Shown: one piece after another, positions 5,997-48,018 of the stretch
Position numbering within the stretch: the stretch's first letter is position 1
Layout of the letters: each line of letters begins with the position of its first letter
Assembly (NCBI RefSeq): GCF_057098645.1
Contig: NZ_CM169472.1
DNA: 64,000 nt
Strand: one strand, 5' to 3'
Made by a program: the position numbers and the translations under genes
The notes under the pieces: generated by a model
What the model was told of the DNA's origin: nothing
Database searches by the model: none
The model's input: the letters and a program-made list of their open reading frames with translations, nothing else

Positions 5997-7395
5997 GTTG
6001 TGCCTCTTGCTGACGCAACGCCACCGCCTGTTTGATTTTTGGCTCAAGCAGTTTTGCCACCGCGGCAAAGACCGGCACGACCACCGAGTTACCGAACTGG
6101 CGATAGGCCTGAGTGTCCGAAACCGGAATGCGGAATTTCGCTTCTCCCGGCGCTTCAAAACCCATTAAGCGCGCGCATTCCCGAGGCGTTAACCGACGTG
6201 GACGATGTTGCTGATTCTGCGGATCGTCAAAGTCTTTCTCACCCGTGGCCATATCCCAGCCGCGATCGATTAAAATTTCCGCGCCATCTTTGTAATAACG
6301 CGCAGACAGCGTACGGGTGACGCTTTGCGGATTGTTCGGATAAACCATTCCATAACCGAAGCCGTTACCGCGCGCCTGATGTTTTTTCGCATATCGATAG
6401 AGGTACTTCCACAGCACCGGCGTCAGGATATATTTCGCCTCGACCATCGGGTCCAGCAGCTGCGCTAGCGTCACTCGCTGTCCAGGGAAACATTCGCTGA
6501 TATCACGCAGAGTAAAATCGGCTTTAAGATTCAGATCGCGACGAAAACCCACCAGCACGATGCGTTCACGGTGCTGCGGCAGAAAATGTTTACCATCGAT
6601 GATTTTCGGATCGTCCGGCCCGTTATCTTCTGCATCAGCCACGTCATAGCCCAGTTCGTCCAGCGTCTGCATGATGATGCGGAACGTTTTACCCTGGTCG
6701 TGGCTTTTCAGGTTTTTGACGTTTTCGAGCACAAACATCGCCGGACGACGCGCGTCGATAATGCGCACCACATCAAAGAACAGCGTGCCCTGAGTATCGC
6801 AGGCAAAACCGTGCGCCCGCCCGAGCGAGTTCTTTTTCGATACGCCAGCCAGCGAAAATGGCTGACAAGGGAAACCGGCCAGTAAAACATCGTGTTCAGG
6901 AATGTGTTGACGAATATGTTCCGCCGCCGCCTCATCACTCACGCCTTCTTTATGGCTGAGGGTGATGTCGCGGATATCTTCATTAAAATGATGCGTCGCC
7001 GGATCGCAATAATGGTTGGCTTTATAAGTGCGTACCGCATGTTTGTTCCATTCGCTGGTAAACACGCACTGTCCGCCAATCGATTCAAAACCGCGACGGA
7101 TGCCGCCAATTCCGGCGAATAGATCGATAAAGCGAAACGCATAATGCGGATGATGTGCCGGTGGTTTGGGTAACAACGTTTGCAGATGGGCGAACTCTTT
7201 CTCACTTAAACGGTGCCATGCCGAGTCATTCGCCAGCGCACGTTTTAAAATTGCCGCGCTCCAGTGATTCTCACCTACACCATTAAGCTGAGCCACCAGC
7301 GTTTTAACATCATAAATTTGCAGCAGTTTCTCCAGCATTGCCTGTGCGGCATTCCCGGTGCTGTATGAATCGGTTACTGATATATTTTCCTGCAT
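5977..7395 (-). CDS. dcm: DNA cytosine-5 methyltransferase
   Basis: 472-aa ORF with C5-MTase motifs ([17 protein letters not shown]). Confidence 0.9.
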
Positions 7396-7461
7396 AGATT
7401 TAACCGGCCATCTGAGATGGTCGACAGGTTAACATAATTACTGCCGTTTAGGGCCACGCGC

Positions 7462-8157
7462 TCAGCCCGCAGGTGAAAACGCATCTATCACCTTGTGATC
7501 GACACCTTCATTCTCCCCCGCCAGTTCGGCACTGAGCTTCGCCATAAACTCGACTAAAAATTGCGCGTTGTGCTGCGCCAGCTGCTTGCCTCTTACGGTT
7601 TGCATGGTTTGCGGTAGCTTCAGCAACTTAGTCTGGAAATGATCCAGCGCGTAGCGTTTATCATCAAGCGGGCGATACTGTGCGAACGGATCTTCGCCAT
7701 CAAACAGCGCCACGCCCAATGCCCCTGAAACGGCAAACACGCGCGCCAGGCCAATCGCCCCCAGGGCTTCCAGCCGATCCGCATCCTGGACGATTTTAGC
7801 TTCCGTGGTTAAGGGGGCGATTTGCGCGCTGAAACTGTGAGCGGCAATGGCATGACAAACGGCCTCGATTTTCTCCGCCGGAAATTGCTCGAACTCTTCA
7901 CGGAGCAGGCGACGCGTCTCTTCTGCCGCCAGGATTGAAGAACGCTGCCGTTGCGGATGATTTTTCGCCAAGCTCACAATATCGTGAAAATAACAGGCGG
8001 TTAAAATCACCAGCATATCGACGTCATCATCTGCCGCCAGCTTCTGTGCCGTAGCCCAGACGCGGCGAAAATGACACACGTCATGGGCCGCGTCCTGGTG
8101 CTGATGATGGTTTTTCAACCAGTTTTCGAACTCTGCCTGCCAGTGTTGTAAGTCCAT
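7462..8157 (-). CDS. yedJ: HD-domain phosphohydrolase
   Basis: 231-aa ORF with HD-domain His/Asp residues (CHFRRV... HD); conserved position. Confidence 0.8.
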
Positions 8158-33579: not shown

Positions 33580-34362
33580 TTAATCATTTTCTGGTTTGTT
33601 TGAAGTTTCATTTACAGGCTGGATCACATCCTTATTAAAATGGCGCGTTTGTTCGACTTTACCTTTTCTAGAAAGGCCTGCACCTTCTAAAATTGAATCG
33701 ATTTTATCGCCACCATTAGCTAAGAAATGCTTAAAATTTTCCGATGATAACATTTCCATTATAGGCGATGAATGGGTAGCTTCTTCAACAAATCTTAATG
33801 GCGGCTCCTCCAGTCGAGTAAGTGCATTACCAAATAACCTTTGGGTAAAGTCGCTATCAAGTTGGACAGCTTCTCTTCTATATCCCTCATAAGCTTTGGA
33901 TACTGAGGCCTTGAATTCATAATCCTCTGCCAATCTGAATCGCTGACCAATTTGTTTCGTTGCTAACCAAGCAAACCATAATGGTGCTCCAACACTTAAA
34001 ATGGAGAGTAAAAGTTGAATAGCTAACTTTATACCTGATGCGTCAGGGTTTGACAGATATGCTTCGAGAGCATGTAAACGCGTATAACCAACAGCAGCAC
34101 CTGCAACCAAAGCACCTATTAGTCCACATACCCACCAACGTATGCTCCGGTTTAATTTTTCTGCTTTATCTTGAAATGCCCCAGCCAAACCTTTTGAAGT
34201 AGTAGTTCTAAATGCCTCTTCACATTTATTAATATAACCCTGAGCTTCTTCACGGAGAGATTGTAAATAATCTTTTGCATCCTTGCTTGCATTCTGTTTC
34301 AGCGCCAAAATTTCTTGTCTGGCCTCATCTACGATTTTGGAGTTCTCTTCAGTCTCTTTAAG
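33580..34362 (-). pseudogene. 3' part of an IS1-disrupted cargo gene (two-TM protein of unknown function)
   Basis: Frame continues from the 8-bp IS1 target duplication; encodes two hydrophobic helices (WWVCGLIGALVAGAAVGY, LLLSILSVGAPLWFAWLA) and a C-terminal soluble domain. Confidence 0.6.
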
Positions 34363-34377
34363 GGTAATGACTCCAAC

Positions 34378-34881
34378 TTATTGATAGTGTTTTATGTTCA
34401 GATAATGCCCGATGACTTTGTCATGCAGCTCCACCGATTTTGAGAACGACAGCGACTTCCGTCCCAGCCGTGCCAGGTGCTGCCTCAGATTCAGGTTATG
34501 CCGCTCAATTCGCTGCGTATATCGCTTGCTGATTACGTGCAGCTTTCCCTTCAGGCGGGATTCATACAGCGGCCAGCCATCCGTCATCCATATCACCACG
34601 TCAAAGGGTGACAGCAGGCTCATAAGACGCCCCAGCGTCGCCATAGTGCGTTCACCGAATACGTGCGCAACAACCGTCTTCCGGAGCCTGTCATACGCGT
34701 AAAACAGCCAGCGCTGGCGCGATTTAGCCCCGACGTATCCCCACTGTTCGTCCATTTCCGCGCAGACGATGACGTCACTGCCCGGCTGTATGCGCGAGGT
34801 TACCGACTGCGGCCTGAGTTTTTTAAATGGCGGAAAATCGTGTTGAGGCCAACGCCCATAATGCGGGCGGTTGCCCGGCAT
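34378..34881 (-). CDS. insB: IS1 transposase InsB
   Basis: 167-aa [21 protein letters not shown]... matches IS1 InsB. Confidence 0.9.
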
Positions 34882-35075
34882 CCAACGCCATTCATGGCCA
34901 TATCAATGATTTTCTGGTGCGTACCGGGTTGAGAAGCGGTGTAAGTGAACTGCAGTTGCCATGTTTTACGGCAGTGAGAGCAGAGATAGCGCTGATGTCC
35001 GGCGGTGCTTTTGCCGTTACGCACCACCCCGTCAGTAGCTGAACAGGAGGGACAGCTGATAGAAACAGAAGCCAC
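34800..35075 (-). CDS. insA: IS1 InsA
   Basis: 91-aa ORF with zinc-finger [16 protein letters not shown]... matches IS1 InsA. Confidence 0.9.
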
Positions 35076-35130
35076 TGGAGCACCTCAAAAACACCATCAT
35101 ACACTAAATCAGTAAGTTGGCAGCATCACC

Positions 35131-35747
35131 TCTTTAAGCATGCCATTAATATTTCTGCAATGCTCAACTGCGCTATTGTAAACATTTTTAACTTCATCAT
35201 TTGTTTCACGAAGCATTTTTACTGTTGTCGGTAGATTCTCGGCTGCATCATATGCTTCATTTATAGTTTTAATTTTCTCTTCTATATTACCAGTTTCAGC
35301 TGCAATTGCAGATATACCTGAATTATATAATTCTAATCTGCGTAAAATTTGCTTTGGTAATAAATTTCTATCTTTCAGCCTCTCAAATGAAAAAAGGTCA
35401 TTAATCCTATGAGAGATATATAACATTGAAATAACATAAGATGGTATAGCGGTCTGTTGAACTGATGCGTTACCATTGTTTATATGATTAATATTTTGCT
35501 GAGCATGATCCAGAGTGTAAATGAGCGCATCAATTACTGCAATGTCATCTGAAGATGGTACAAATTCCTGCATCTGATTAATTCTATCAGATAACATTTT
35601 TGGTAGTTCTATCAGATCCTCTTTATGTAAAAAAGGAAATGTGTACGGCCCAAGGTTTATAAAATCTTCCACAGGGAATACAAGACCATTAAGTGTTGTA
35701 TGTAAATTATCTAGTTTCTCTTTTAATTCAGTTAGTTTTTCGTTCAT
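35131..35747 (-). pseudogene. 5' part of the IS1-disrupted cargo gene (N-terminal helical domain)
   Basis: About 205 native codons (MNEKLTELKEKLDNL...NINGMLKE), then the reading frame enters the IS1 inverted repeat. Confidence 0.6.
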
Positions 35748-35841
35748 TAAAAAAATCCTTTATGACGCTATAGAACTTCCAGAGTAATCCGATAAAGATA
35801 TCATAAGACAATATTTTGGTATAAACACTTATTGCGCGCGC

Positions 35842-35860
35842 TCGTATCCCCGCCACGCCT
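35842..35860. other. Candidate phage cos site (186-like cohesive end)
   Basis: Minus-strand GGCGTGGCGGGGATACGAG shares its first 13 nt with the recalled 186 cohesive end and resembles that of P2. Confidence 0.45.
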
Positions 35861-36032
35861 GCCCGCTTTATGTAGTGGTTTTCATGCACCTGCATGATCT
35901 ACGCAAAAGCCCGCCAGAACTGGCGGGCCTTAACACAAAAGATCCTCAAACGATCATGCGATCTCATGCAGCATAGACATGCGCGCTTATGCAGAATGTG
36001 CAAAATCGTAACATACTCAGTAAGCGTGAAAA

Positions 36033-36710
36033 CTAGAACGTGACAGCCTTGTCAAAGCCAGAAATAATTGTATAAGAAATAGACGAGTTATCAGCCTTGT
36101 TCACTTTGAACTTGGCACCTTTGTAAGCGATAACGTCACTTCCCTTAGAATCTACAGAAAAATCTGTTGTAAATGCTGCACGAGCCATATCGTTTGCAAA
36201 TTCACGATAGGTGAACTTCATTACACCGCCTGCATTTCCATTGTATTCGATAGTCTTAACCAATGAGTTACTAACTCGACACAGCCCATCAGGAACACGT
36301 TTGATAGAAATTTCTGATGCAGTATAAGAAGTACCATTTGGCGGTGATATCTCATTTTTTGCAGCATCGTAACTAACATAATCAACATAGTTACCGATTT
36401 GCCCATAGAGATTTTTTAACGCAACAGCTTGAGGGTTATGATAATTGCGGTAAATTCCATTCCCCTCACTGCAATATGTACCAGCAGCGATAGAAGACAA
36501 TGCACCATTAGCCGCACCAAGTTCTAGTACGTCCGTTTTAAATCCAGTAGCAGATGTGATAATGGGATCGCCCATGTAGGCGGTAGCACTTTGCCCAATA
36601 GCAGGCTTCACCACTTCAATAGCAGTGATATTTCGGTTAGAAGCATGTGGCACGCAACCAGTTAGGATTACAGCAAGAGATATTGGTAACGCTACATTAT
36701 TAATTTTCAT
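36033..36710 (-). CDS. Lipoprotein of unknown function (prophage cargo next to cos)
   Basis: Signal peptide with lipobox MKINNVALPISLAVILTGC and a Gly/Ser/Thr-rich mature domain; AT-rich. Confidence 0.7.
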   Translation of the reverse strand: MKINNVALPISLAVILTGCVPHASNRNITAIEVVKPAIGQSATAYMGDPIITSATGFKTDVLELGAANGALSSIAAGTYCSEGNGIYRNYHNPQAVALKNLYGQIGNYVDYVSYDAAKNEISPPNGTSYTASEISIKRVPDGLCRVSNSLVKTIEYNGNAGGVMKFTYREFANDMARAAFTTDFSVDSKGSDVIAYKGAKFKVNKADNSSISYTIISGFDKAVTF

Positions 36711-36823
36711 TTTTAGCCTATTATTCTTTTCTTGACAAAAAACAAGGCGATATCCGATTGACATCGCCTCTCACTCATATGTAACCCTTTTTGATTAGTA
36801 AAAACAAGCGTCTATTGACAAAA

Positions 36824-37057
36824 TCAATGCAGCCAGCTGTCGTCTTCCCACACCTTCTGCATAATTTTCATCACTTGTTTTCTTTCTTCGTCCAGTTGCA
36901 GTCCGGTCAGTTCCACACCGTTAGAGCTACCTTTACGGATACGGATTACCGTTTTGGGATACAGGGGGCGCAGATTGCGGTAAAGCTCGGATTCAAGGGC
37001 GTCCAGGGTAGACTGGCTAATCTTCTGCTCTTTATCGATCATTATTTCAATGCGCAT
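36824..37057 (-). CDS. DinI-family protein
   Basis: MRIEIMIDKEQKISQSTLDALESEL...QKVWEDDSW resembles DinI (MRIEVTIAK...ETWESADDW). Confidence 0.7.
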   Translation of the reverse strand: MRIEIMIDKEQKISQSTLDALESELYRNLRPLYPKTVIRIRKGSSNGVELTGLQLDEERKQVMKIMQKVWEDDSWLH

Positions 37058-37067
37058 AAAAGTCACC

Positions 37068-37256
37068 TCAGCTGATGACATCCATTGAGCGGTTGTATTC
37101 GTGGCTTCTGATTTTTGCCATGAGTTCATCAGTCAATTCAGAAACCCACTGCAGAGCCAGCCCCTTCTCTTCATCACTACACTCACTAGCCGCTACAAGC
37201 TTAAGAAAAAAATCAATGCGCTGGAGCTTCAAAGACTCCAAAAAATAGTCCTGCAT
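37068..37256 (-). CDS. Small SOS-controlled protein, possible Tum-like antirepressor
   Basis: 62-aa ORF directly downstream of a LexA box and upstream of the dinI-like gene, the arrangement of the 186 tum operon. Sequence similarity not confirmed. Confidence 0.35.
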   Translation of the reverse strand: MQDYFLESLKLQRIDFFLKLVAASECSDEEKGLALQWVSELTDELMAKIRSHEYNRSMDVIS

Positions 37257-37299
37257 CTTTCCTCCTATGACACCACAAGAAATACTGTATGTATAACCA

Positions 37300-37315
37300 C
37301 TGTTTATATTTACAG
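37300..37315. promoter_or_regulatory. LexA operator (SOS box)
   Basis: CTGTTTATATTTACAG matches the CTGT-N8-ACAG consensus, about 45 bp upstream of the tum-like ORF. Confidence 0.6.
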
Positions 37316-37410
37316 TATATAATAATCTTACTGATGTAAAACGTTTTTTTTACGCTTATCAGCTTGATATGCCTGGTATTATTAAGAGCACGAATTGTTA
37401 ACCAGCGTAA

Positions 37411-39416
37411 TTAATACAGGTTCCGCCACTTATCATCTTCCTGCAAACGCTGGTTCCGATAGAAGATACGCAGGCCTGCTCCTGACGGAATACTGCCGCC
37501 GCGAAGGAGTAAATCGACCTCTTTCTCGCTGCCATCAAATCCTCTGGATTTCAGTTCATAGACGAGCTGCTGTCGTTGATGGTCTGTAATTCGCTGTTTG
37601 TAGTCTCTACGCCGTTTCGGTTTCACCAGACGTAACCTTGCAGCCAGTTCCCGGCGCTCCTTTTTGTTCATACTGTGCAGGTAATCGTGCAACTCCTTGT
37701 CATCCATGCGGGTAAAGTCCGTTCTGGGGTCCCCATCAGCTGATTTATCTTTCTCCTGTTGGTTCAAATTTTCAGCAAGGGGACAGTTATTGCCACGAGT
37801 CCAAGGGGCGCAAGCGCCCTGGTCGGCTGCCGCCTCCTGAACGTCAACGGCCTTACGAACCATTTTCCACTTCACTGCATGAGTACAAATCTTGCCCTCT
37901 GCAATGGGTGACCAGATGCCATAAATACGAATACCGTGATCGCCATAGGCGGTCGGCTCTTCGTTAATTTCATAAGCTGTTCTGATAAGGTGATATTTGC
38001 GGGGAACCAGTACGCCGCCCTGCTTCATAATGTAGGTGGCAAAACAACCAGCATCAGCAGCAGCCAGAATGGCATCAAGGCGCGGGTTATCCAGTACCGG
38101 CGCACCTGCTTTTTTGTCACCCTGTTGCCTTGCCGCCTGACCAGCCAGCAATCGCAATTCACGGTACGCCTGACGCCCCGGAATACCAAAGAAGCGAAAT
38201 TGCTGAACACGATGCAGAGACGCCCAGGCATTAACGTATTCAGCGTTATCACGCAGGGATTTACCCGTTTCCTTGCTGATTTCGCCAGCCAGACCACGCC
38301 CATCAATGTTCTTACTGATGTATTTCGCGATGTAGCTTGTCGGCGTTCCTTTTCGCGGGTTAATCAGCTCAGACTTAAAGCGCGGCCCCGTGTTATTGCC
38401 CAGCTCCTCACGGTCTTCACGGATAGCAAACTTACGCAACAATGCAGTAATGGCGCGGCGGTCTTTTTTGCGCATGAAACACAACAGGTGCCAGTGAACT
38501 GTGCCGTCATGATGCGGCTCAGCCACCCGCACGCCATACCAGCGCAACCCGGCTTTGTGCATCGCCTTACGAAATGCAGCAAACATACCGACCAGATAAT
38601 CGCTGCTTTGTCTTACCGTCGCATTTGTCCATGTCGGGTTGGGTCTGCCGTTATTGAGCGTGGAATGGAAACGTGACGGACAGGTAATGGTGTAGAAAAC
38701 GGCGCAGTCACCGCGCATTTCCGCGATAAGCTCCAGACCTTTAACACAGGCCATCATCTCATTGCGACGATGCGCCGGGTTGCTGCTGCTGGCGTTTACC
38801 ACATCTTCCATATCCAGCGCGTCTCCGTCTTCGTTCACCAGTTCATGAGAACGGAAAAACTCCAGTGACTTACGGCGCTGCTCACGTTTATGCATCACGG
38901 CTTCATAGCTGACATAGGGAGATGCTTTTTTGCTGACCAGGCAGACAGCACGCAACTGCTCTTCCCGCCATTCGCAACGCATCTTCCACAATTTCCGATA
39001 CCACCAGTCGGCGCACAGCATACGCGCCAGCGAACCCGGAATGAGTTCATAGGGCACGGGTTTACGGCGGTTTCTTTTCCGACGGAGTTGCTCAAACGCA
39101 GGCGGGATGACATCCAGACGCAGGGTTTCCGCTGCCACCTTTTCCCATGTCTTGCGGATTTCTTCTGGCTTAACGTCATCGGTGGCATACAAATCACCAC
39201 AAGCTGCATCAAGGCACATACTCATATGCGCAGCTACCAAGGTGGACAGGCGTTTCACCTGATCCTGACTCATTTCAGGCAGGATCAGCAGGCCGTCCAG
39301 CCCTTCATGGCTTGCCATAAAGCGAAAAGATGCAGATAGCTGACTGTCGCGTACATGCTCCAGTCGTTCCAGACATGGCTTAATCGTCTCACGTAAATAG
39401 CGGGAATAAGCCTTTG
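37411..39416 (-). pseudogene. Replication initiation endonuclease gene A, 3' portion (split by IS21-family insertion)
   Basis: 635-aa ORF with rolling-circle initiator motif ([11 protein letters not shown]); frame stays open upstream of the annotated Met as far as the IS boundary. Confidence 0.8.
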
Positions 39417-39515
39417 TGCGTATTCCGCTCTATTCGATCACGGATTGGCATCGAAGTCCGATCAGCGATTCGCATCCATTCGATCAACCGGGAACTTAAC
39501 TTTTTCTACCGCTTT

Positions 39516-40271
39516 TTAACGCGTTTTTTCGCTGCTTTCCACTACCGGGGGATTTTTCCTCAGTGACTCTCCCTGAAGGACCACTCGGTGTGAGTTATGT
39601 ACCAGTCTGTCCAGGATGGCATCTGCTGTTGTTGGGTTCTCCATCAGACCATGCCATTTATCTACCGGGAACTGGCTTACCACTATCGTGCTGCTTTGTC
39701 CGTAACGATCCTCTATGAGCTCCAGAAGGTCATTACACTGGGCGTTACTTAACTGTTCCAGCCCCAGATCGTCCAGGATTAGAACCTGTATTTTTTGCAA
39801 CTGTTTCAGATATTTCAGCCAGCTGCCATCAACACGTCCCTGAGCCAGTTGTTCCAGTAATCGCCCGGTTCTACAGTACCGGACGCTGTGTTTCTGTCGA
39901 CATGCCTGTTCGCCCAGCGCATTGGCTATCCAGCTCTTGCCACATCCTGTCGGACCGGTTATCAGCAGGTTTTTCCTGTGGGTTATGTAGTGGCCGTTCA
40001 GCAGTTCTCTCATCTGTTCAGCCCGCAGACCTCTTGAGGCCGGATAGCGCAGCCCTTCCGGTGTTGCCTGGTATTTCAGGCCGGCATTTTTTCTCAACCG
40101 TGCCACACGGCTGTTTTCCCTGCTCAGAAGCTCGTCATCAACCAGCAGCGTCAGCCTTTCCTCGAACGACAGTTCGTCGTAGGTCTGAGGCGTTTCCCGC
40201 TGCCGTATCAGGCTCCCGGCCATCGCCGGGAGTTTCAGTTGGGTCAGTTTGTTTAACAGGTTATCACTCAT
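39516..40271 (-). CDS. istB: IS21-family helper ATPase IstB
   Basis: Walker A (GPTGCGKS) and Walker B (LILDDLG) motifs; start chosen at MSDNLLNKL. Confidence 0.8.
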   Translation of the reverse strand: MSDNLLNKLTQLKLPAMAGSLIRQRETPQTYDELSFEERLTLLVDDELLSRENSRVARLRKNAGLKYQATPEGLRYPASRGLRAEQMRELLNGHYITHRKNLLITGPTGCGKSWIANALGEQACRQKHSVRYCRTGRLLEQLAQGRVDGSWLKYLKQLQKIQVLILDDLGLEQLSNAQCNDLLELIEDRYGQSSTIVVSQFPVDKWHGLMENPTTADAILDRLVHNSHRVVLQGESLRKNPPVVESSEKTR

Positions 40272-40287
40272 ACTGTTGTTCCTTCTG

Positions 40288-41823
40288 TCAGTGGTAGTAG
40301 CCCGGACCACGCAGGTTTTCATGCTCTGAAGCATATGCCGGATGTTGTTCGCCCTGGCGGGATAATGGAAGCTCCAGGTTCTCCCGATGGTGACGCAGCA
40401 GATTGTCGATAAAGCGTCTGTCAGGGGCGTTATAGTGCAGGGCAACGTAACAGGCCTTTTCCAGCCGTTCCGGGCCGTATTTTTTCTGAAGTGCCAGCAG
40501 CCCCAGAACTGCACGATAAGCCAGTTCCGGATGGGGTTTTGCCTTCAGCATGGATTCAACCACCCGGCCTGTGGACGGGCCCGTACGTTTTCCCTGCTCG
40601 ATCAGGCGTTCCGGTGTCCATGTCCCGTGCTGCCGGTGGCGCTCTGGCATGTGAAGCGGATTGGTTGTGTGTTTATATTCATGTGTGCTGCGCGGATGTT
40701 GCGCCACACACTGCCCCTTGTGCCAGAGCTGTACCACCGACTGCCCCGCCTTCAGTGACAGACGCTGACCGACCAGTTCGTGTGGAACGGAGTACCAGTG
40801 ACGGGCATATTCAACGTGGTAGTCAGGGCCAACCTTCACAGCTTTGTATTCCGTGTATTCATAAGGTGCCAGAGGCAGCGGAGAGAGTGCTGGCGCATCC
40901 AGTATGCGGAAGCGTTCTGCACGGGTTTGATTGCCGTACCCCTTCATTGGCCGGTTATTCATGTCTGTCAGTAACTCCCTAAGGCGCGCATTCAGCGCCC
41001 TGAGCGTGTGGAAGGTTTCATTACGGATGCGGGCAAGAAGCCATCGTTCAACGATGAGGACGCCGTTTTCTGCTTTTGGTTTATCTTTAGGTTTGCGTGG
41101 TCGGGCCGGGATGATAACCGTGCCATAGTGCTCAGCCAGTGCCTGATAACTGTCGTTGATGACAGGCTCATATCGATCGGCCTTTTTCACTGCGCTTCTG
41201 AGGTTATCGGGGATGAGCAGCTTCGGTACGCCGCCCAGGAAGGTCAGGCAACGGCTGTGGGCATTTAACCATGACATCATGTCCTGACCTTCGCACGCTT
41301 CAACGTAGGTATAGTTGGACGCCCCCATTACGGCCACGAAGATTGCCACGCGGCGTATCTCACCGGTGTCCGGATTAATAACAGGAACCGTAGGACCACA
41401 GAAGTCGATAAAAAGCTTTTCGCCGGCACGATGCTCCTGGCGCATGGAGAGACGTCGCGTTTTTTTCCACTCCCGGTAGCAACGGCAGAAGTGCGAGTAT
41501 CCCATCGCTTTGTTACCCGCCTGTGCCTTGTATTCCATCCACAACAGTTGCCGCGTCACACCTGGTTTTCTCATTTCCGTATCGAAGTACAACATGTCAG
41601 GCATTACAAGCTCTGATGCAAAGGTGTCTTTGGGCGGAAAAATGAGTTTCTCCAGCGTGTCATGGGATATATCAGCAGGTAATGGCCATGACAGAGAAGA
41701 GGCTTTGAAGCGGGCAAGAACCTCAAAAACGGTTGAGGCGCTGATGTGTAACGTCAGTCCGATACAACGGTTAGTCAGCTTCTTGTCGAACTTGAGCTGA
41801 AGGATCTTAAAACAGGTTTCCAT
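40288..41823 (-). CDS. istA: IS21-family transposase IstA
   Basis: About 512-aa product with integrase-type catalytic core; start chosen at METCFKILQL. Confidence 0.8.
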   Translation of the reverse strand: METCFKILQLKFDKKLTNRCIGLTLHISASTVFEVLARFKASSLSWPLPADISHDTLEKLIFPPKDTFASELVMPDMLYFDTEMRKPGVTRQLLWMEYKAQAGNKAMGYSHFCRCYREWKKTRRLSMRQEHRAGEKLFIDFCGPTVPVINPDTGEIRRVAIFVAVMGASNYTYVEACEGQDMMSWLNAHSRCLTFLGGVPKLLIPDNLRSAVKKADRYEPVINDSYQALAEHYGTVIIPARPRKPKDKPKAENGVLIVERWLLARIRNETFHTLRALNARLRELLTDMNNRPMKGYGNQTRAERFRILDAPALSPLPLAPYEYTEYKAVKVGPDYHVEYARHWYSVPHELVGQRLSLKAGQSVVQLWHKGQCVAQHPRSTHEYKHTTNPLHMPERHRQHGTWTPERLIEQGKRTGPSTGRVVESMLKAKPHPELAYRAVLGLLALQKKYGPERLEKACYVALHYNAPDRRFIDNLLRHHRENLELPLSRQGEQHPAYASEHENLRGPGYYH

Positions 41824-42055
41824 AGTGCTCCTGGATTTTCTCTTTCTGGACATTGACGTCTCCACTGGTTTAAACACGGCAATGGAGACTGTGGTGAAAA
41901 GAGTTAATTCCCGGAGTGACTGGCAGGATGCCAATCAATGATCGGAAGCATGCCAAATCGTGATCGATTGTGATGCCAAACTGTGATCGGAGATGGATGC
42001 CAAATCATGATCGATTCGAATGCCAAACTGCGATCGATTCAGATGCCATTTTGCA

Positions 42056-42470
42056 CCTTTGGCCTGCCCAGGCTGCTGAAGTATTCAATACGTTGCATCA
42101 GCGGCTTGCTGATATGGGAAGGCTGGGCGTTGACGTCCGCCAGAATGACCATGTCTGAATTAAAACGCTGCTGCTCATGCGCCAGCTTTGCCCGGCTAAT
42201 GAGCTTATCCTGCTCCATTTCGCGCTGGACAGGATCACGTGATTCATTAAAGAAATAACGCTCCCAGACCTGATCACTCAGTGCCTCGCGGCGCAACTGT
42301 TCCTGCTCGTTATCGGCAGCGTACAGAGTGATCAGGTTTGAAAGCGTAGAAACCGGCGCAACTTCCGCCGGGTCCAGATAAGGGTTAATGGCCTTTTTCG
42401 GGCTGTTCCATGAGAACGCTGCGGCAGCCTCGTTAAAGCCGCAGCAGTTGTTCATATCGGCATGACTCAT
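42056..42470 (-). pseudogene. Replication gene A, 5' portion (upstream of IS insertion)
   Basis: ORF is in frame with 37411-39416 once the IS and one copy of the target duplication are removed; its last 8 codons in the track come from the IS end. Confidence 0.6.
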
Positions 42471-45244: not shown

Positions 45245-45820
45245 GTGACCATGAATTTGGAGAAAGGCGGACGAGGCGCTATAGAGCGCATGGTAGAAGC
45301 TTATGGATTCAAGACTCGACAGGCGTTGTGCGATCATTTAGGAATCTCTAAAAGTACACTCGCCACACGCTACATGCGTGACTCATTCCCAGCAGAATGG
45401 GTAATCCAGTGCGCCCTTGAAACAGGCACCTCGCTTAATTGGCTCACAACCGGGCATGGTTCAAAGCAAACTTCAGGTAATACAAATACTATGGAAGTTG
45501 CTAAATATGTATTATCTGATGGGGCCTTGTGTGAAGACGGTTTTTATATTTTCGATAGAGAATTTCTACCGTCGGCATTCAAGAATCTTTTTGTAATCAC
45601 AGATAATAATTCTGAATTTATTTGTGATAAGGAATTTGATGATATACGTGATGGTAAATGGGTAATAAGTATTGATGGCGAAATAACGATCCGTGACATT
45701 ACTCGTTTACCCGGTGGAAGAATCTTCGTCGAGGGTGGAAACAGAGCCTTCGAATGCAAGATAGAAGACATTGAAATAATTGGTAAAATTATAAGCTTAA
45801 CAGTCAAGTATGTTAAATAG
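45245..45820 (+). CDS. 186-type CI immunity repressor
   Basis: 191-aa ORF; N-terminus ...MVEAYGFKTRQALCDHLGISKSTLATRYMRD...CALETGTSLNWLTTGHG resembles 186 CI; followed by int on the same strand. Confidence 0.7.
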   Translation: MTMNLEKGGRGAIERMVEAYGFKTRQALCDHLGISKSTLATRYMRDSFPAEWVIQCALETGTSLNWLTTGHGSKQTSGNTNTMEVAKYVLSDGALCEDGFYIFDREFLPSAFKNLFVITDNNSEFICDKEFDDIRDGKWVISIDGEITIRDITRLPGGRIFVEGGNRAFECKIEDIEIIGKIISLTVKYVK

Positions 45821-47712: not shown

Positions 47713-48018
47713 TCCCTTTGCCACGGCCCGGCGGCTTTTCTGGCGCTTCGCCACGGCGATAACCCACTGAATGGTTATTCCATTTGCGCATTCCCAGACG
47801 CCGCAGACAAACAAACGCCAGAGATAGGCTATATGCCGGGTCATCTCACCTGGTACTTCGGCGAAGAGCTGAAGAAAATGGGCATGAACATTATTAATGA
47901 CGACATCACCGGGCGAGTACATAAGGACCGTAAAGTTCTCACCGGCGACAGTCCTTTCGCAGCGAATGCGTTGGGTAAACTGGCGGCGCAGGAAATGCTG
48001 GCAGCTTACGCGGGTTAA
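47701..48018 (+). pseudogene. hchA: hchA 3' fragment
   Basis: Encodes RFVISLCHGPAAFLALRHGDNPLNGYSICAFPDAADKQTPEIGYMPGHLTWY...AAYAG, the HchA C-terminus including the catalytic Cys region. Confidence 0.85.

What the first reader, a model, noticed from the sequence alone, without database searches (positions are those of the whole stretch)
36824..37320. LexA-controlled tum-like/dinI-like operon: a 186-style SOS induction module
A perfect CTGT-N8-ACAG LexA box (37300-37315) precedes a 62-aa ORF and a DinI-family gene, both pointing towards cos. In 186, prophage induction runs through a LexA-repressed antirepressor (Tum) rather than RecA-mediated CI cleavage. The 62-aa protein is much shorter than 186 Tum, so its function is uncertain.
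Basis: partly seen in the sequence, partly recalled or inferred. Interest (0 to 1): 0.45.

Follow-up and report, generated by a model that had tools for sequence, protein, structure and literature searches.

The report
Split Tum SOS induction switch, known
This is the DNA-damage switch of a P2/186-like prophage: a LexA-repressed promoter drives a 62-residue antirepressor (TumA) and a DinI-like protein (TumB), and the identical gene has already been shown in E. coli HS to be required for prophage induction, so the finding is correct but ordinary.

Summary
A strong LexA box (20-mer 37298-37317, minus strand) overlaps the -10 of a promoter. That promoter drives a 62-aa ORF (37256..37068) and a 77-aa DinI-family ORF (37057..36824). 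Next come a terminator, a lipoprotein gene, a second terminator and cos (35859..35841).

186 Tum (146 aa) is an N-terminal antirepressor half fused to a DinI-like half. Here, as in PSP3 (tumA/tumB) and Fels-2, a stop codon splits the two. The 62-aa protein is homologous to the Tum N-half (hhalign 96%, E 3.8e-9).

The region is about 100% identical to the E. coli HS prophage "DuoHS". The published delta-tum primers match the window exactly and delete precisely this ORF. That deletion, and lexA(Ind-), abolish mitomycin C induction. A 186-type CI is present.

Three further points:
- The operator is a colicin-type pair of overlapping LexA boxes.
- TumA often occurs without DinI.
- In this window replication gene A is split by an IS21-family element, so this copy is probably defective.

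Verdict: already known; low interest.

The parts
37335..37340 (-). -35 hexamer TTTACA of the p95-like SOS promoter
   Evidence: Read. It lies 17 nt upstream of TACTGT. TT(T/C)ACA at 17-18 nt spacing is conserved in Fels-2, SopEPhi, a Klebsiella phage and ESSI-2-type phages. The layout matches the annotated p95 of 186. The generic promoter scan did not list it, because TACTGT matches TATAAT at only 3 of 6 positions.
37312..37317 (-). -10 hexamer TACTGT, which is also the left arm of LexA box 1
   Evidence: The hexamer and its overlap with the LexA box are the same as at the annotated 186 p95 -10.
37298..37317 (-). LexA box 1, TACTGTAAATATAAACAGTG (core CTGT-N8-ACAG at 37315..37300)
   Evidence: it is the only 20-mer in the window within 3 mismatches of the consensus, with 0.01 expected by chance. 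A perfect-core box sits upstream of tum/tumA in all 14 other loci examined, at 32-100% protein identity.
37283..37302 (-). Putative LexA box 2, CAGTGGTTATACATACAGTA (core GTGG-N8-ACAG at 37300..37285), sharing one base with box 1
   Evidence: It has 5 mismatches to the consensus. The 43-nt operator is 84% identical to the ColE1 colicin E1 operator. Colicin operators bind two LexA dimers (PMC2994835). Among 79 close loci the ACAG arm is nearly invariant while three spacer positions vary freely. LexA binding was not tested.
37261..37266 (-). Shine-Dalgarno AGGAGG of tumA
   Evidence: it lies 4 nt before ATG 37256.
37068..37256 (-). tumA: the 62-aa antirepressor, homologue of the N-terminal half of 186 Tum
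   Evidence: It matches phrog_698 at 5.9e-38, and the 186 Tum N-half hits the same family. hhalign gives 96% probability, E 3.8e-9, aligning residues 2-46 with 2-46. AlphaFold2 predicts a two-helix hairpin, pLDDT 88. The published HS delta-tum junction is this ORF's ATG fused to its TGA.
36824..37057 (-). tumB: the 77-aa DinI-family protein, homologue of the C-terminal half of 186 Tum
   Evidence: Pfam DinI at 6.6e-23. It is 41% identical to Tum residues 71-145, 100% to the Fels-2 protein and 78% to PSP3 TumB. It matches E. coli DinI 1GHH at 2.7e-06. The GAGG ribosome-binding site overlaps the tumA stop codon.
36744..36770 (-). Intrinsic terminator-like hairpin plus T-run after tumB, in the position of 186 t95a
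   Evidence: 186 has a partial terminator, t95a, at the same place.
36033..36710 (-). Lipoprotein-like gene (225 aa, signal peptide ending LTGC) in the position of 186 orf97
   Evidence: phrog_1353, function unknown. It is annotated as a 678-nt CDS in HS. It is not homologous to 186 Orf97.
35905..35928 (-). Second terminator-like hairpin GCCCGCCAG..CTGGCGGGC plus TTTT, in the position of 186 t95b
   Evidence: Read directly. It lay across the edge of the region scanned.
35841..35859 (-). cos cohesive-end sequence GGCGTGGCGGGGATACGAG
   Evidence: The first 13 nt are identical to the annotated 186 cos, GGCGTGGCGGGGAAAGCAT. The preceding CATAAAGCGGGCA is identical to the right end of PSP3.
45245..45820 (+). 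186-type CI immunity repressor, the inferred target of TumA
   Evidence: 33% identity to 186 CI over 175 residues, E 7e-38. HS annotates it as phage repressor protein CI.

Best explanation
The region is the SOS operon of a Fels-2/186-like (Peduoviridae) prophage, with the tum gene in its split form.

**Repressed state.** In the lysogen, LexA occupies an operator that overlaps the -10 and the start region of a promoter just downstream of replication gene A. The operator is one strong box, probably joined by a second box that overlaps it by one base, as in colicin operators.

**Induction.** DNA damage activates RecA and LexA cleaves itself. The operon is then transcribed: tumA, tumB and, by read-through, a lipoprotein gene, ending just before cos.

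**TumA.** This 62-residue helical hairpin is homologous to the N-terminal half of 186 Tum. It binds the 186-type CI repressor and stops it binding its operators. That derepresses the early lytic operon without any cleavage of CI.

**TumB.** This DinI-like protein is homologous to the C-terminal half of Tum. It probably tunes the RecA filament, and so the course of the SOS response, rather than acting on CI.

**Shown and inferred.**
- Shown here: the anatomy, the homologies, the conservation of LexA control, and sequence identity with the E. coli HS prophage.
- Shown by others on the identical sequence: induction requires this ORF and cleavable LexA.
- Inferred by homology with 186: direct TumA-CI binding.
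- Inferred only: LexA occupancy of the second box, the role of TumB, and read-through into the lipoprotein gene.
For: **LexA control**
- The box is unique in the window and is not a chance match.
- A perfect-core LexA box lies 35-68 nt upstream of the start codon in all 15 tum/tumA loci compared. The 9 from named phages span at least 6 Peduoviridae genera.
- The -35, spacer and -10 layout is the same as the annotated LexA-controlled p95 of 186.

**Homology**
- The 62-aa protein and the 186 Tum N-half hit the same PHROG families reciprocally.
- They align profile to profile at 96% probability, E 3.8e-9.
- The DinI-like ORF aligns with Tum residues 71-145 at 41% identity.
- PSP3 is annotated tumA ("similar to 5' end 186 tum; UV induction of prophage") and tumB.

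**Literature**
- Lemire 2011 states that Fels-2 and PSP3 have tum split by a stop codon, and that in PSP3 the upstream gene carries the antirepressor activity.
- Their deletion junction and confirmation primers match the window exactly and delimit this ORF. The 3.4-kb region is about 100% identical to HS.

**Other support**
- A 186-type CI is present.
- TumA occurs without any DinI gene in 7 of 13 loci checked, so the small protein is the autonomous unit.
- Both ORFs are under purifying selection.
Against: - No direct biochemical evidence exists for this TumA binding this CI. The only published binding data are for fused 186 Tum. TumA is only about 20% identical to that N-half, and pairwise BLASTP finds nothing.
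- The PSP3 antirepressor assignment rests on a personal communication cited second-hand.
- The primary paper on Fels-2 (Bunny et al. 2002) was not available to me.
- In this window gene A is interrupted by an IS21-family element. Here the switch may no longer lead to phage production.
Confidence: 0.9

Rival explanations
1. The DinI-like protein (TumB) is the real inducer, for example by stimulating RecA-dependent inactivation of CI. The 62-aa ORF would then be an accessory or leader peptide.
For: In 186 both halves sit in one polypeptide, and shorter DinI-only products are made from internal starts. TumB is the more conserved of the two proteins: 78% identical to PSP3 TumB, against about 22% for TumA.
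Against: - The HS delta-tum allele removes only the 62-aa ORF in frame and keeps tumB with its ribosome-binding site, yet it abolishes induction.
- Seven of 13 related loci have LexA-controlled tumA and no DinI gene.
- In PSP3 the upstream gene is reported to carry the antirepressor activity.
- The 186 record annotates the DinI-only products as modulators.
Confidence: 0.03
2. In this particular genome the module no longer serves induction. The prophage is crippled, and the LexA-controlled tumA-tumB-lipoprotein operon persists as a host-beneficial SOS accessory: a DinI paralogue that modulates RecA, plus a surface lipoprotein.
For: Gene A is split by an IS21-family insertion and a cargo gene by IS1, relative to the intact HS prophage. 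DinI-like genes under LexA control are common prophage cargo, as in the Gifsy phages.
Against: The module is about 100% identical to that of the functional HS phage, so nothing shows it has been adapted to a new role. The IS insertions look recent, with intact target duplications. This reading describes the fate of one copy, not what the module is.
Confidence: 0.05
3. The LexA box is a chance palindrome in AT-rich intergenic DNA, and the operon is transcribed constitutively or by read-through from gene A.
For: CTGT-N8-ACAG occurs three times in the window and two of those are probably chance. The generic sigma-70 scan did not call a promoter here.
Against: The 20-mer match is expected 0.01 times per window. 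The box is kept in all 15 loci compared although the flanking sequence has diverged. lexA(Ind-) blocks induction of the identical prophage.
Confidence: 0.01

Closest known systems
tum of the E. coli HS P2-like prophage "DuoHS" (Phollow papers, PMC11195241 and PMC12055606)
   Same: The 3.4 kb spanning gene A (3' part), promoter, tumA, tumB and lipoprotein gene is about 100% identical. The published deletion and confirmation primers match the window exactly. Induction requires tum and cleavable LexA.
   Different: The window's prophage carries an IS21-family insertion in gene A and an IS1 in the cargo gene between cos and the portal gene. Its right-hand host flank also differs. It is therefore a different, probably defective, copy.
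Fels-2 (STM2728 / STM2726.1) and PSP3 tumA/tumB: the split tum genes
   Same: The architecture is the same: gene A, LexA box, a small tumA of about 60 aa, a stop codon, a 77-aa DinI-like tumB. The region is about 97% identical in DNA to Fels-2. TumB is 78% identical to PSP3 TumB.
   Different: TumA is only about 22% identical to PSP3 TumA. PSP3 has a single LexA box and a 3-nt gap between the genes; here there are two overlapping boxes and a 10-nt gap.
Coliphage 186 SOS operon (p95-tum-t95a-orf97-t95b)
   Same: The position is the same, between gene A and cos. The LexA box overlaps a TACTGT -10 in both. Both have an antirepressor domain, a DinI-like domain, two terminators and a 186-type CI as target.
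   Different: 186 Tum is one 146-aa polypeptide with internal starts; here there are two genes. The N-half identity is about 20%. The gene in the orf97 position is unrelated. 186 has one LexA box.
Colicin operators (two overlapping SOS boxes, e.g. ColE1 cea)
   Same: The 43-nt operator is 84% identical to the ColE1 operator upstream of the colicin E1 start codon. Both share the CTGT-N8-(A/C)CAG|TGG-N8-ACAG layout with one shared base. The literature describes two LexA dimers and very tight repression at these sites.
   Different: The gene controlled is a prophage antirepressor, not a toxin and lysis operon. LexA binding to the second box has not been tested here.
Gifsy-type LexA-controlled dinI-antirepressor operons (GfoA, GftA)
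   Same: The logic is the same: LexA represses an operon that encodes a small antirepressor plus a DinI homologue, and the repressor is not cleaved.
   Different: The gene order is reversed, with dinI first, and the hosts are lambdoid prophages with different repressors. Homology between TumA and GfoA/GftA was not tested.

Membership tests
186-type Tum SOS induction module | LexA operator overlapping the promoter of an operon located between replication gene A and cos | tested here: met
   Box at 37298-37317 overlaps the -10 TACTGT. Gene A ends at 37411. cos is at 35841-35859. The layout matches 186 p95.
186-type Tum SOS induction module | Protein homologous to the N-terminal (antirepressor) half of 186 Tum | tested here: met
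   hhalign 96% probability, E 3.8e-9, residues 2-46 against 2-46. Reciprocal PHROG hits. Pairwise BLASTP alone finds nothing.
186-type Tum SOS induction module | DinI-like domain homologous to the C-terminal half of Tum | tested here: met
   41% identity to Tum 71-145, E 3e-24. Pfam DinI at 6.6e-23.
186-type Tum SOS induction module | Both halves in one 146-aa polypeptide with internal starts, as in 186 itself | tested here: not met
   A TGA at 37070..37068 and a 10-nt gap separate the two ORFs. This is the split tumA/tumB form of PSP3 and Fels-2. Most database relatives of the Tum N-half are also stand-alone proteins of 60-90 aa.
186-type Tum SOS induction module | Cognate 186-type CI repressor in the same prophage | tested here: met
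   The product of 45245..45820 is 33% identical to 186 CI, E 7e-38.
186-type Tum SOS induction module | The protein binds CI and prevents operator binding; induction depends on SOS and on tum | not testable with these tools
   The genetic requirement is published for the identical sequence in E. coli HS (with primers mapped). Binding has been shown only for 186 Tum (Shearwin et al. 1998, as cited).
186-type Tum SOS induction module | orf97 homologue downstream in the operon | tested here: not met
   The 243/225-aa ORF in that position shows no similarity to 186 Orf97. It belongs to phrog_1353.
DinI family (PF06183) | Sequence match above the Pfam gathering score over the full domain | tested here: met
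   81.3 bits against a cut-off of 24.2, profile positions 1-63 of 63. It aligns end to end with E. coli DinI 1GHH.
DinI family (PF06183) | Binding to and modulation of the RecA filament | not testable with these tools
   Inferred from family membership only.
Colicin-type double SOS operator | Two 16-bp LexA cores overlapping by one base | tested here: met
   CTGTAAATATAAACAG and GTGGTTATACATACAG share G37300. The operator is 84% identical to the ColE1 operator.
Colicin-type double SOS operator | Occupancy by two LexA dimers | not testable with these tools
   Only indirect support: the ACAG arm of box 2 is nearly invariant among 79 close loci while the spacer varies. The arrangement is kept in Fels-2, SopEPhi and a Klebsiella Gegevirus.

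The most novel reading that the evidence does not exclude
The Fels-2/HS clade has replaced the single LexA box of 186 and PSP3 with a colicin-type pair of overlapping boxes. That would set a much higher damage threshold and a later, all-or-none timing for prophage induction. On this reading the operator, not the antirepressor, tunes how readily these widespread E. coli, Salmonella and Klebsiella prophages fire. I found no paper stating this, but I could not read the primary Fels-2 paper.
Probability: 0.45. Interest if true: 0.3.

Novelty: already known. Interest (0 to 1): 0.12.

Why it matters
This module decides when a very common family of P2/186-like prophages in E. coli, Salmonella and Klebsiella switches to lytic growth after DNA damage, including damage from antibiotics. 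That affects phage-mediated gene transfer and lysis in the gut. The mechanism is established for 186, the split gene form is recognised in PSP3 and Fels-2, and the very same sequence has been tested genetically in E. coli HS. The practical value here is therefore mainly annotation. TumA homologues are labelled "hypothetical protein" or wrongly "levan regulatory protein" in nearly all records. The colicin-like double operator is a testable detail about the induction threshold.

Tried and rejected
- Pairwise BLASTP of the 62-aa protein against 186 Tum found nothing. Homology appeared only with profiles.
- PADLOC gave no hits for the lipoprotein or the ORFs between cos and the portal gene.
- Pfam gave no family for the 62-aa protein, and PDB sequence search found no relative.
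- Foldseek of the AlphaFold2 model against the PDB gave only generic helical hairpins, none at E <= 0.001, so it is not informative.
- A search for the P2 cos 19-mer, recalled from memory, with up to 3 mismatches found nothing. cos was then found by homology to the 186 and PSP3 ends.
With the single protein it returned only near-identical loci. Diversity was obtained through the look-up of encoding contigs instead.
- The generic promoter scan did not list the SOS promoter, because its -10, TACTGT, is a poor TATAAT match. The annotated 186 p95 uses the same hexamer.
- Bunny et al. 2002 (PMC151935), the primary Fels-2/lexA paper, is not held.
- I did not compute a heterology index for the boxes, because I do not have the published matrix.

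Full report
**What is in the sequence**

All features lie on the minus strand, listed here in the 5'-to-3' direction.

| Feature | Coordinates | Note |
|---|---|---|
| -35 hexamer TTTACA | 37340..37335 | 17-nt spacer follows |
| -10 hexamer TACTGT | 37317..37312 | also the left arm of LexA box 1 |
| LexA box 1, TACTGTAAATATAAACAGTG | 37317..37298 | strong site |
| Second core, GTGGTTATACATACAG | 37300..37285 | shares its first G with box 1 |
| Shine-Dalgarno AGGAGG | 37266..37261 | 4 nt before the ATG |
| 62-aa ORF | 37256..37068 | |
| 77-aa ORF | 37057..36824 | 10-nt gap; GAGG overlaps the upstream TGA |
| Hairpin plus T-run | 36770..36744 | |
| Lipoprotein-like gene | 36710..36033 | |
| Second GC-rich hairpin plus TTTT | 35928..35905 | |
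| cos | 35859..35841 | |

That pattern alone is weak evidence: 3 matches against 0.8 expected. The 20-mer is another matter. It is the only site in 64 kb within three mismatches of the consensus, with 0.01 expected by chance.

I placed cos by homology. The first 13 nt are identical to the annotated 186 cohesive end. The preceding 13 nt are identical to the right end of PSP3.

**Are the ORFs genes?**

Yes, both are.
- The downstream ORF is a full-length DinI-family protein. It matches Pfam PF06183 at 81 bits against a cut-off of 24. It aligns end to end with E. coli DinI, PDB 1GHH.
- The 62-aa ORF has no Pfam family, but it belongs to phrog_698 at E 5.9e-38.
- It has hundreds of database relatives in Enterobacterales, nearly all stand-alone proteins of about 60-100 aa named "hypothetical".
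- Both ORFs are under purifying selection, with dN/dS of about 0.06-0.15 in four comparisons.
- Among 80 near-identical IMG/VR loci, 20 distinct DNA versions encode only 2 proteins. Variable columns by codon position are 2/1/15.
- AlphaFold2, run on a 28-sequence alignment, predicts a two-helix hairpin (helices 2-23 and 28-61, mean pLDDT 88). The fold is too simple to give meaningful structure matches.

**Context**

The window holds a P2/186-like (Peduoviridae) prophage. The 721 bases around the finding are 96.8% identical to Fels-2 and 98% to many Klebsiella prophages. The 3.4 kb from the lipoprotein gene through the 3' part of gene A is about 100% identical to E. coli HS and a few other E. 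coli genomes.

Immediately upstream is replication gene A (Pfam Phage_GPA). Downstream of cos are the portal and terminase genes on the opposite strand. A 186-type CI repressor lies at 45245..45820, 33% identical to 186 CI at E 7e-38.

**Why the 62-aa protein is "too short"**

The 186 record annotates p95, which is SOS-dependent. Its -10, TACTGT, overlaps a LexA site and is followed by tum (146 aa). Internal starts give DinI-only products, and then come t95a, orf97 and t95b.
- The window's DinI-like ORF aligns with Tum residues 71-145 at 41% identity.
- Pairwise BLASTP finds nothing between the 62-aa ORF and the N-terminal 70 residues.
- The Tum N-half does hit the 62-aa protein's PHROG family (E 6.7e-6). 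Both also hit phrog_8554 and phrog_1993.
- A profile-profile comparison of the two families gives 96% probability, E 3.8e-9. It aligns residues 2-46 with 2-46 and includes the conserved Cys26 and Ala-Leu 34-35.

So 62 + 77 residues here correspond to the 146 residues of 186 Tum, with a stop codon between the halves.

This is a known arrangement.
- PSP3 is annotated tumA ("similar to 5' end 186 tum; UV induction of prophage") and tumB.
- The Fels-2 record points its DinI gene to PSP3 TumB.
- Lemire et al. 2011 state that Fels-2 and PSP3 have tum split by a stop codon. They add that in PSP3 the upstream gene carries the antirepressor activity, citing Bunny et al. 2002 and a personal communication.
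- Most relatives of the 186 N-half are also stand-alone proteins of 63-91 aa, some named "Tum protein". The fused 186 form is therefore the exception.

**Direct experimental evidence on this sequence**

The Phollow preprint and paper (PMC11195241, PMC12055606) built a delta-tum and a lexA(Ind-) strain of E. coli HS. Neither lyses nor forms viral foci after mitomycin C, although delta-tum still shows normal SOS reporter activity.
- The junction primer is ATAGGAGGAAAGATG|TGAGGTGACTTTTATGCGCATTG.
- Its two halves match the window exactly at 37268..37254 and 37070..37048. That is the start codon of the 62-aa ORF fused to its stop codon, with tumB left intact.
- Both confirmation primers also match exactly.

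**LexA control is a family invariant**

I compared 15 tum/tumA loci: the window, 186, Fels-2, PSP3, SopEPhi, a Klebsiella Gegevirus, two ESSI-2-type phages, a Yersinia phage and six metagenomic or genomic relatives. Their protein identity to the window ranges down to 32%.
- Every locus has a perfect-core LexA box 35-68 nt upstream of the start codon.
- Every one of these loci long enough to show its neighbours has the gene directly after gene A.
- Seven of 13 loci checked have no DinI gene next to tumA.

This fits TumA being the autonomous switch and TumB an add-on. TumB is 78% identical to PSP3 TumB, whereas TumA is only about 22% identical to PSP3 TumA. That is what one expects if TumA tracks its own divergent CI while TumB acts on conserved host RecA. 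This last point is inference.

**The double operator**

In the window, Fels-2, SopEPhi and the Klebsiella Gegevirus, box 1 is followed by GTGG-N8-ACAG, which shares one base with it. 186, PSP3 and the more distant lineages have a single box.
- A 45-nt query hits 989 plasmid records, mostly small mobilizable plasmids.
- In ColE1 the match is 84% identical over 43 nt (TGCTGTATATAAAACCAGTGGTTATATGTACAGTATT). It lies just upstream of an ATG that opens METAVAYYKDG. I recognise that as colicin E1 from memory; the PLSDB gene table does not list the gene.
[quoted passage not shown] They show no detectable basal expression (PMC2994835).
- Among 79 close loci the ACAG arm of box 2 is almost invariant, while three spacer positions vary freely.

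I therefore think two LexA dimers bind here and make repression tighter than in 186. This is not shown, and I could not check whether the primary Fels-2 paper already says so.

**Mechanism, with status of each step**

1. LexA represses the promoter. This is inferred from the sequence and the 186 annotation, and supported genetically by lexA(Ind-) in HS.
2. DNA damage leads to LexA cleavage and transcription of tumA-tumB. This is established for 186 and genetically supported in HS.
3. TumA binds CI and blocks operator binding, without cleaving CI. This is inferred by homology with 186 Tum. The requirement for the gene is shown in HS.
4. TumB modulates RecA. This is inferred from DinI family membership and from the 186 annotation of the DinI-only products as modulators.
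5. Read-through past the first terminator expresses the lipoprotein gene. This is inferred by analogy with t95a and orf97. The gene is not an orf97 homologue and its function is unknown.

**State of this particular prophage**

Compared with HS, the window carries two insertions.

| Insertion | Size | Approximate position | Target duplication | Effect |
|---|---|---|---|---|
| IS1 | 768 bp | 34363-35129 | 9 bp | Splits the 463-aa cargo gene between cos and the portal gene |
| IS21-family element (IstA- and IstB-like ORFs) | about 2.64 kb | 39417-42055 | 6 bp | Splits gene A into a 143-aa 5' piece and a 635-aa 3' ORF |

The SOS module is intact, but induction here probably cannot yield phage.

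**Verdict**

The open question is answered by existing knowledge: this is tumA/tumB, already annotated in PSP3, described for Fels-2, and genetically tested on identical sequence in E. coli HS. The novelty class is "already known".

What remains of interest is small. First, the colicin-type double operator may act as a threshold setter. Second, TumA is poorly annotated across databases.

Noticed in passing
window 39417-42055: An IS21-family element is inserted in replication gene A, relative to the otherwise near-identical E. coli HS prophage. It carries an IstA-like ORF at 40288..41934 and an IstB-like ORF at 39516..40514, with a 6-bp target duplication. Gene A is left as a 143-aa 5' fragment (42039..42470) and a 635-aa 3' ORF (37411..39318). 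The prophage is probably replication-defective.
   Followed up: partly
window 34363-35129: An IS1 copy (768 bp, InsB ORF 34378..34881, 9-bp target duplication) splits the 463-aa gene of unknown function between cos and the portal gene. That gene is intact in E. coli HS (ECHS_RS04510). Here it appears as ORFs 33580..34308 and 35109..35747. Neither half has a Pfam or PADLOC hit.
   Followed up: partly
window 36033-36710: A lipoprotein-like gene (signal peptide ending LTGC; phrog_1353, function unknown) occupies the position of 186 orf97 between the two terminators of the SOS operon. It is not homologous to orf97. It is conserved in Fels-2 (STM2726) and HS. In 186, orf97 expressed from a plasmid blocks infection, so a superinfection-exclusion role is a guess worth testing.
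   Followed up: partly
window 36824-37256, compared with L003 (PSP3) 7135-7554: The operon is a mosaic. TumB is 78% identical to PSP3 TumB, but TumA is only about 22% identical to PSP3 TumA. This fits TumA co-diverging with its cognate CI, and TumB being held constant by host RecA.
   Followed up: partly
window 41150-41165 and 56778-56793: There are two further CTGT-N8-ACAG matches, CTGTCGTTGATGACAG and CTGTTCGAACGAACAG. The first lies inside the IS21-family IstA-like ORF and the second inside ORF 56330..57034. Both have GC-rich spacers and neither comes within 3 mismatches of the 20-mer consensus, so they are probably chance.
   Followed up: no
one of loci L010-L089 (IMG/VR), 20-75 nt upstream of tumA: One of the 80 near-identical loci has unrelated sequence in place of the -35, -10 and LexA box 1, keeping only the right part of box 2 (GGGGTATCCGG...GACTATACATACAGTG). 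It may be a rearranged copy whose tumA has lost LexA control.
   Followed up: no
window 47713 onwards: Homology to the E. coli HS chromosome stops at 47713, just past the integrase and a small ORF. The right-hand host flank is therefore not the rcdA-ybjJ region that flanks the HS prophage. The integration site or a neighbouring island differs.
   Followed up: no
database records for TumA homologues (e.g. P0021; Klebsiella phage MK422454.1): TumA homologues are annotated "hypothetical protein", or wrongly "levan regulatory protein", in RefSeq, UniRef and most phage records. Only relatives of the 186-type N-half sometimes carry the name "Tum protein".
   Followed up: no
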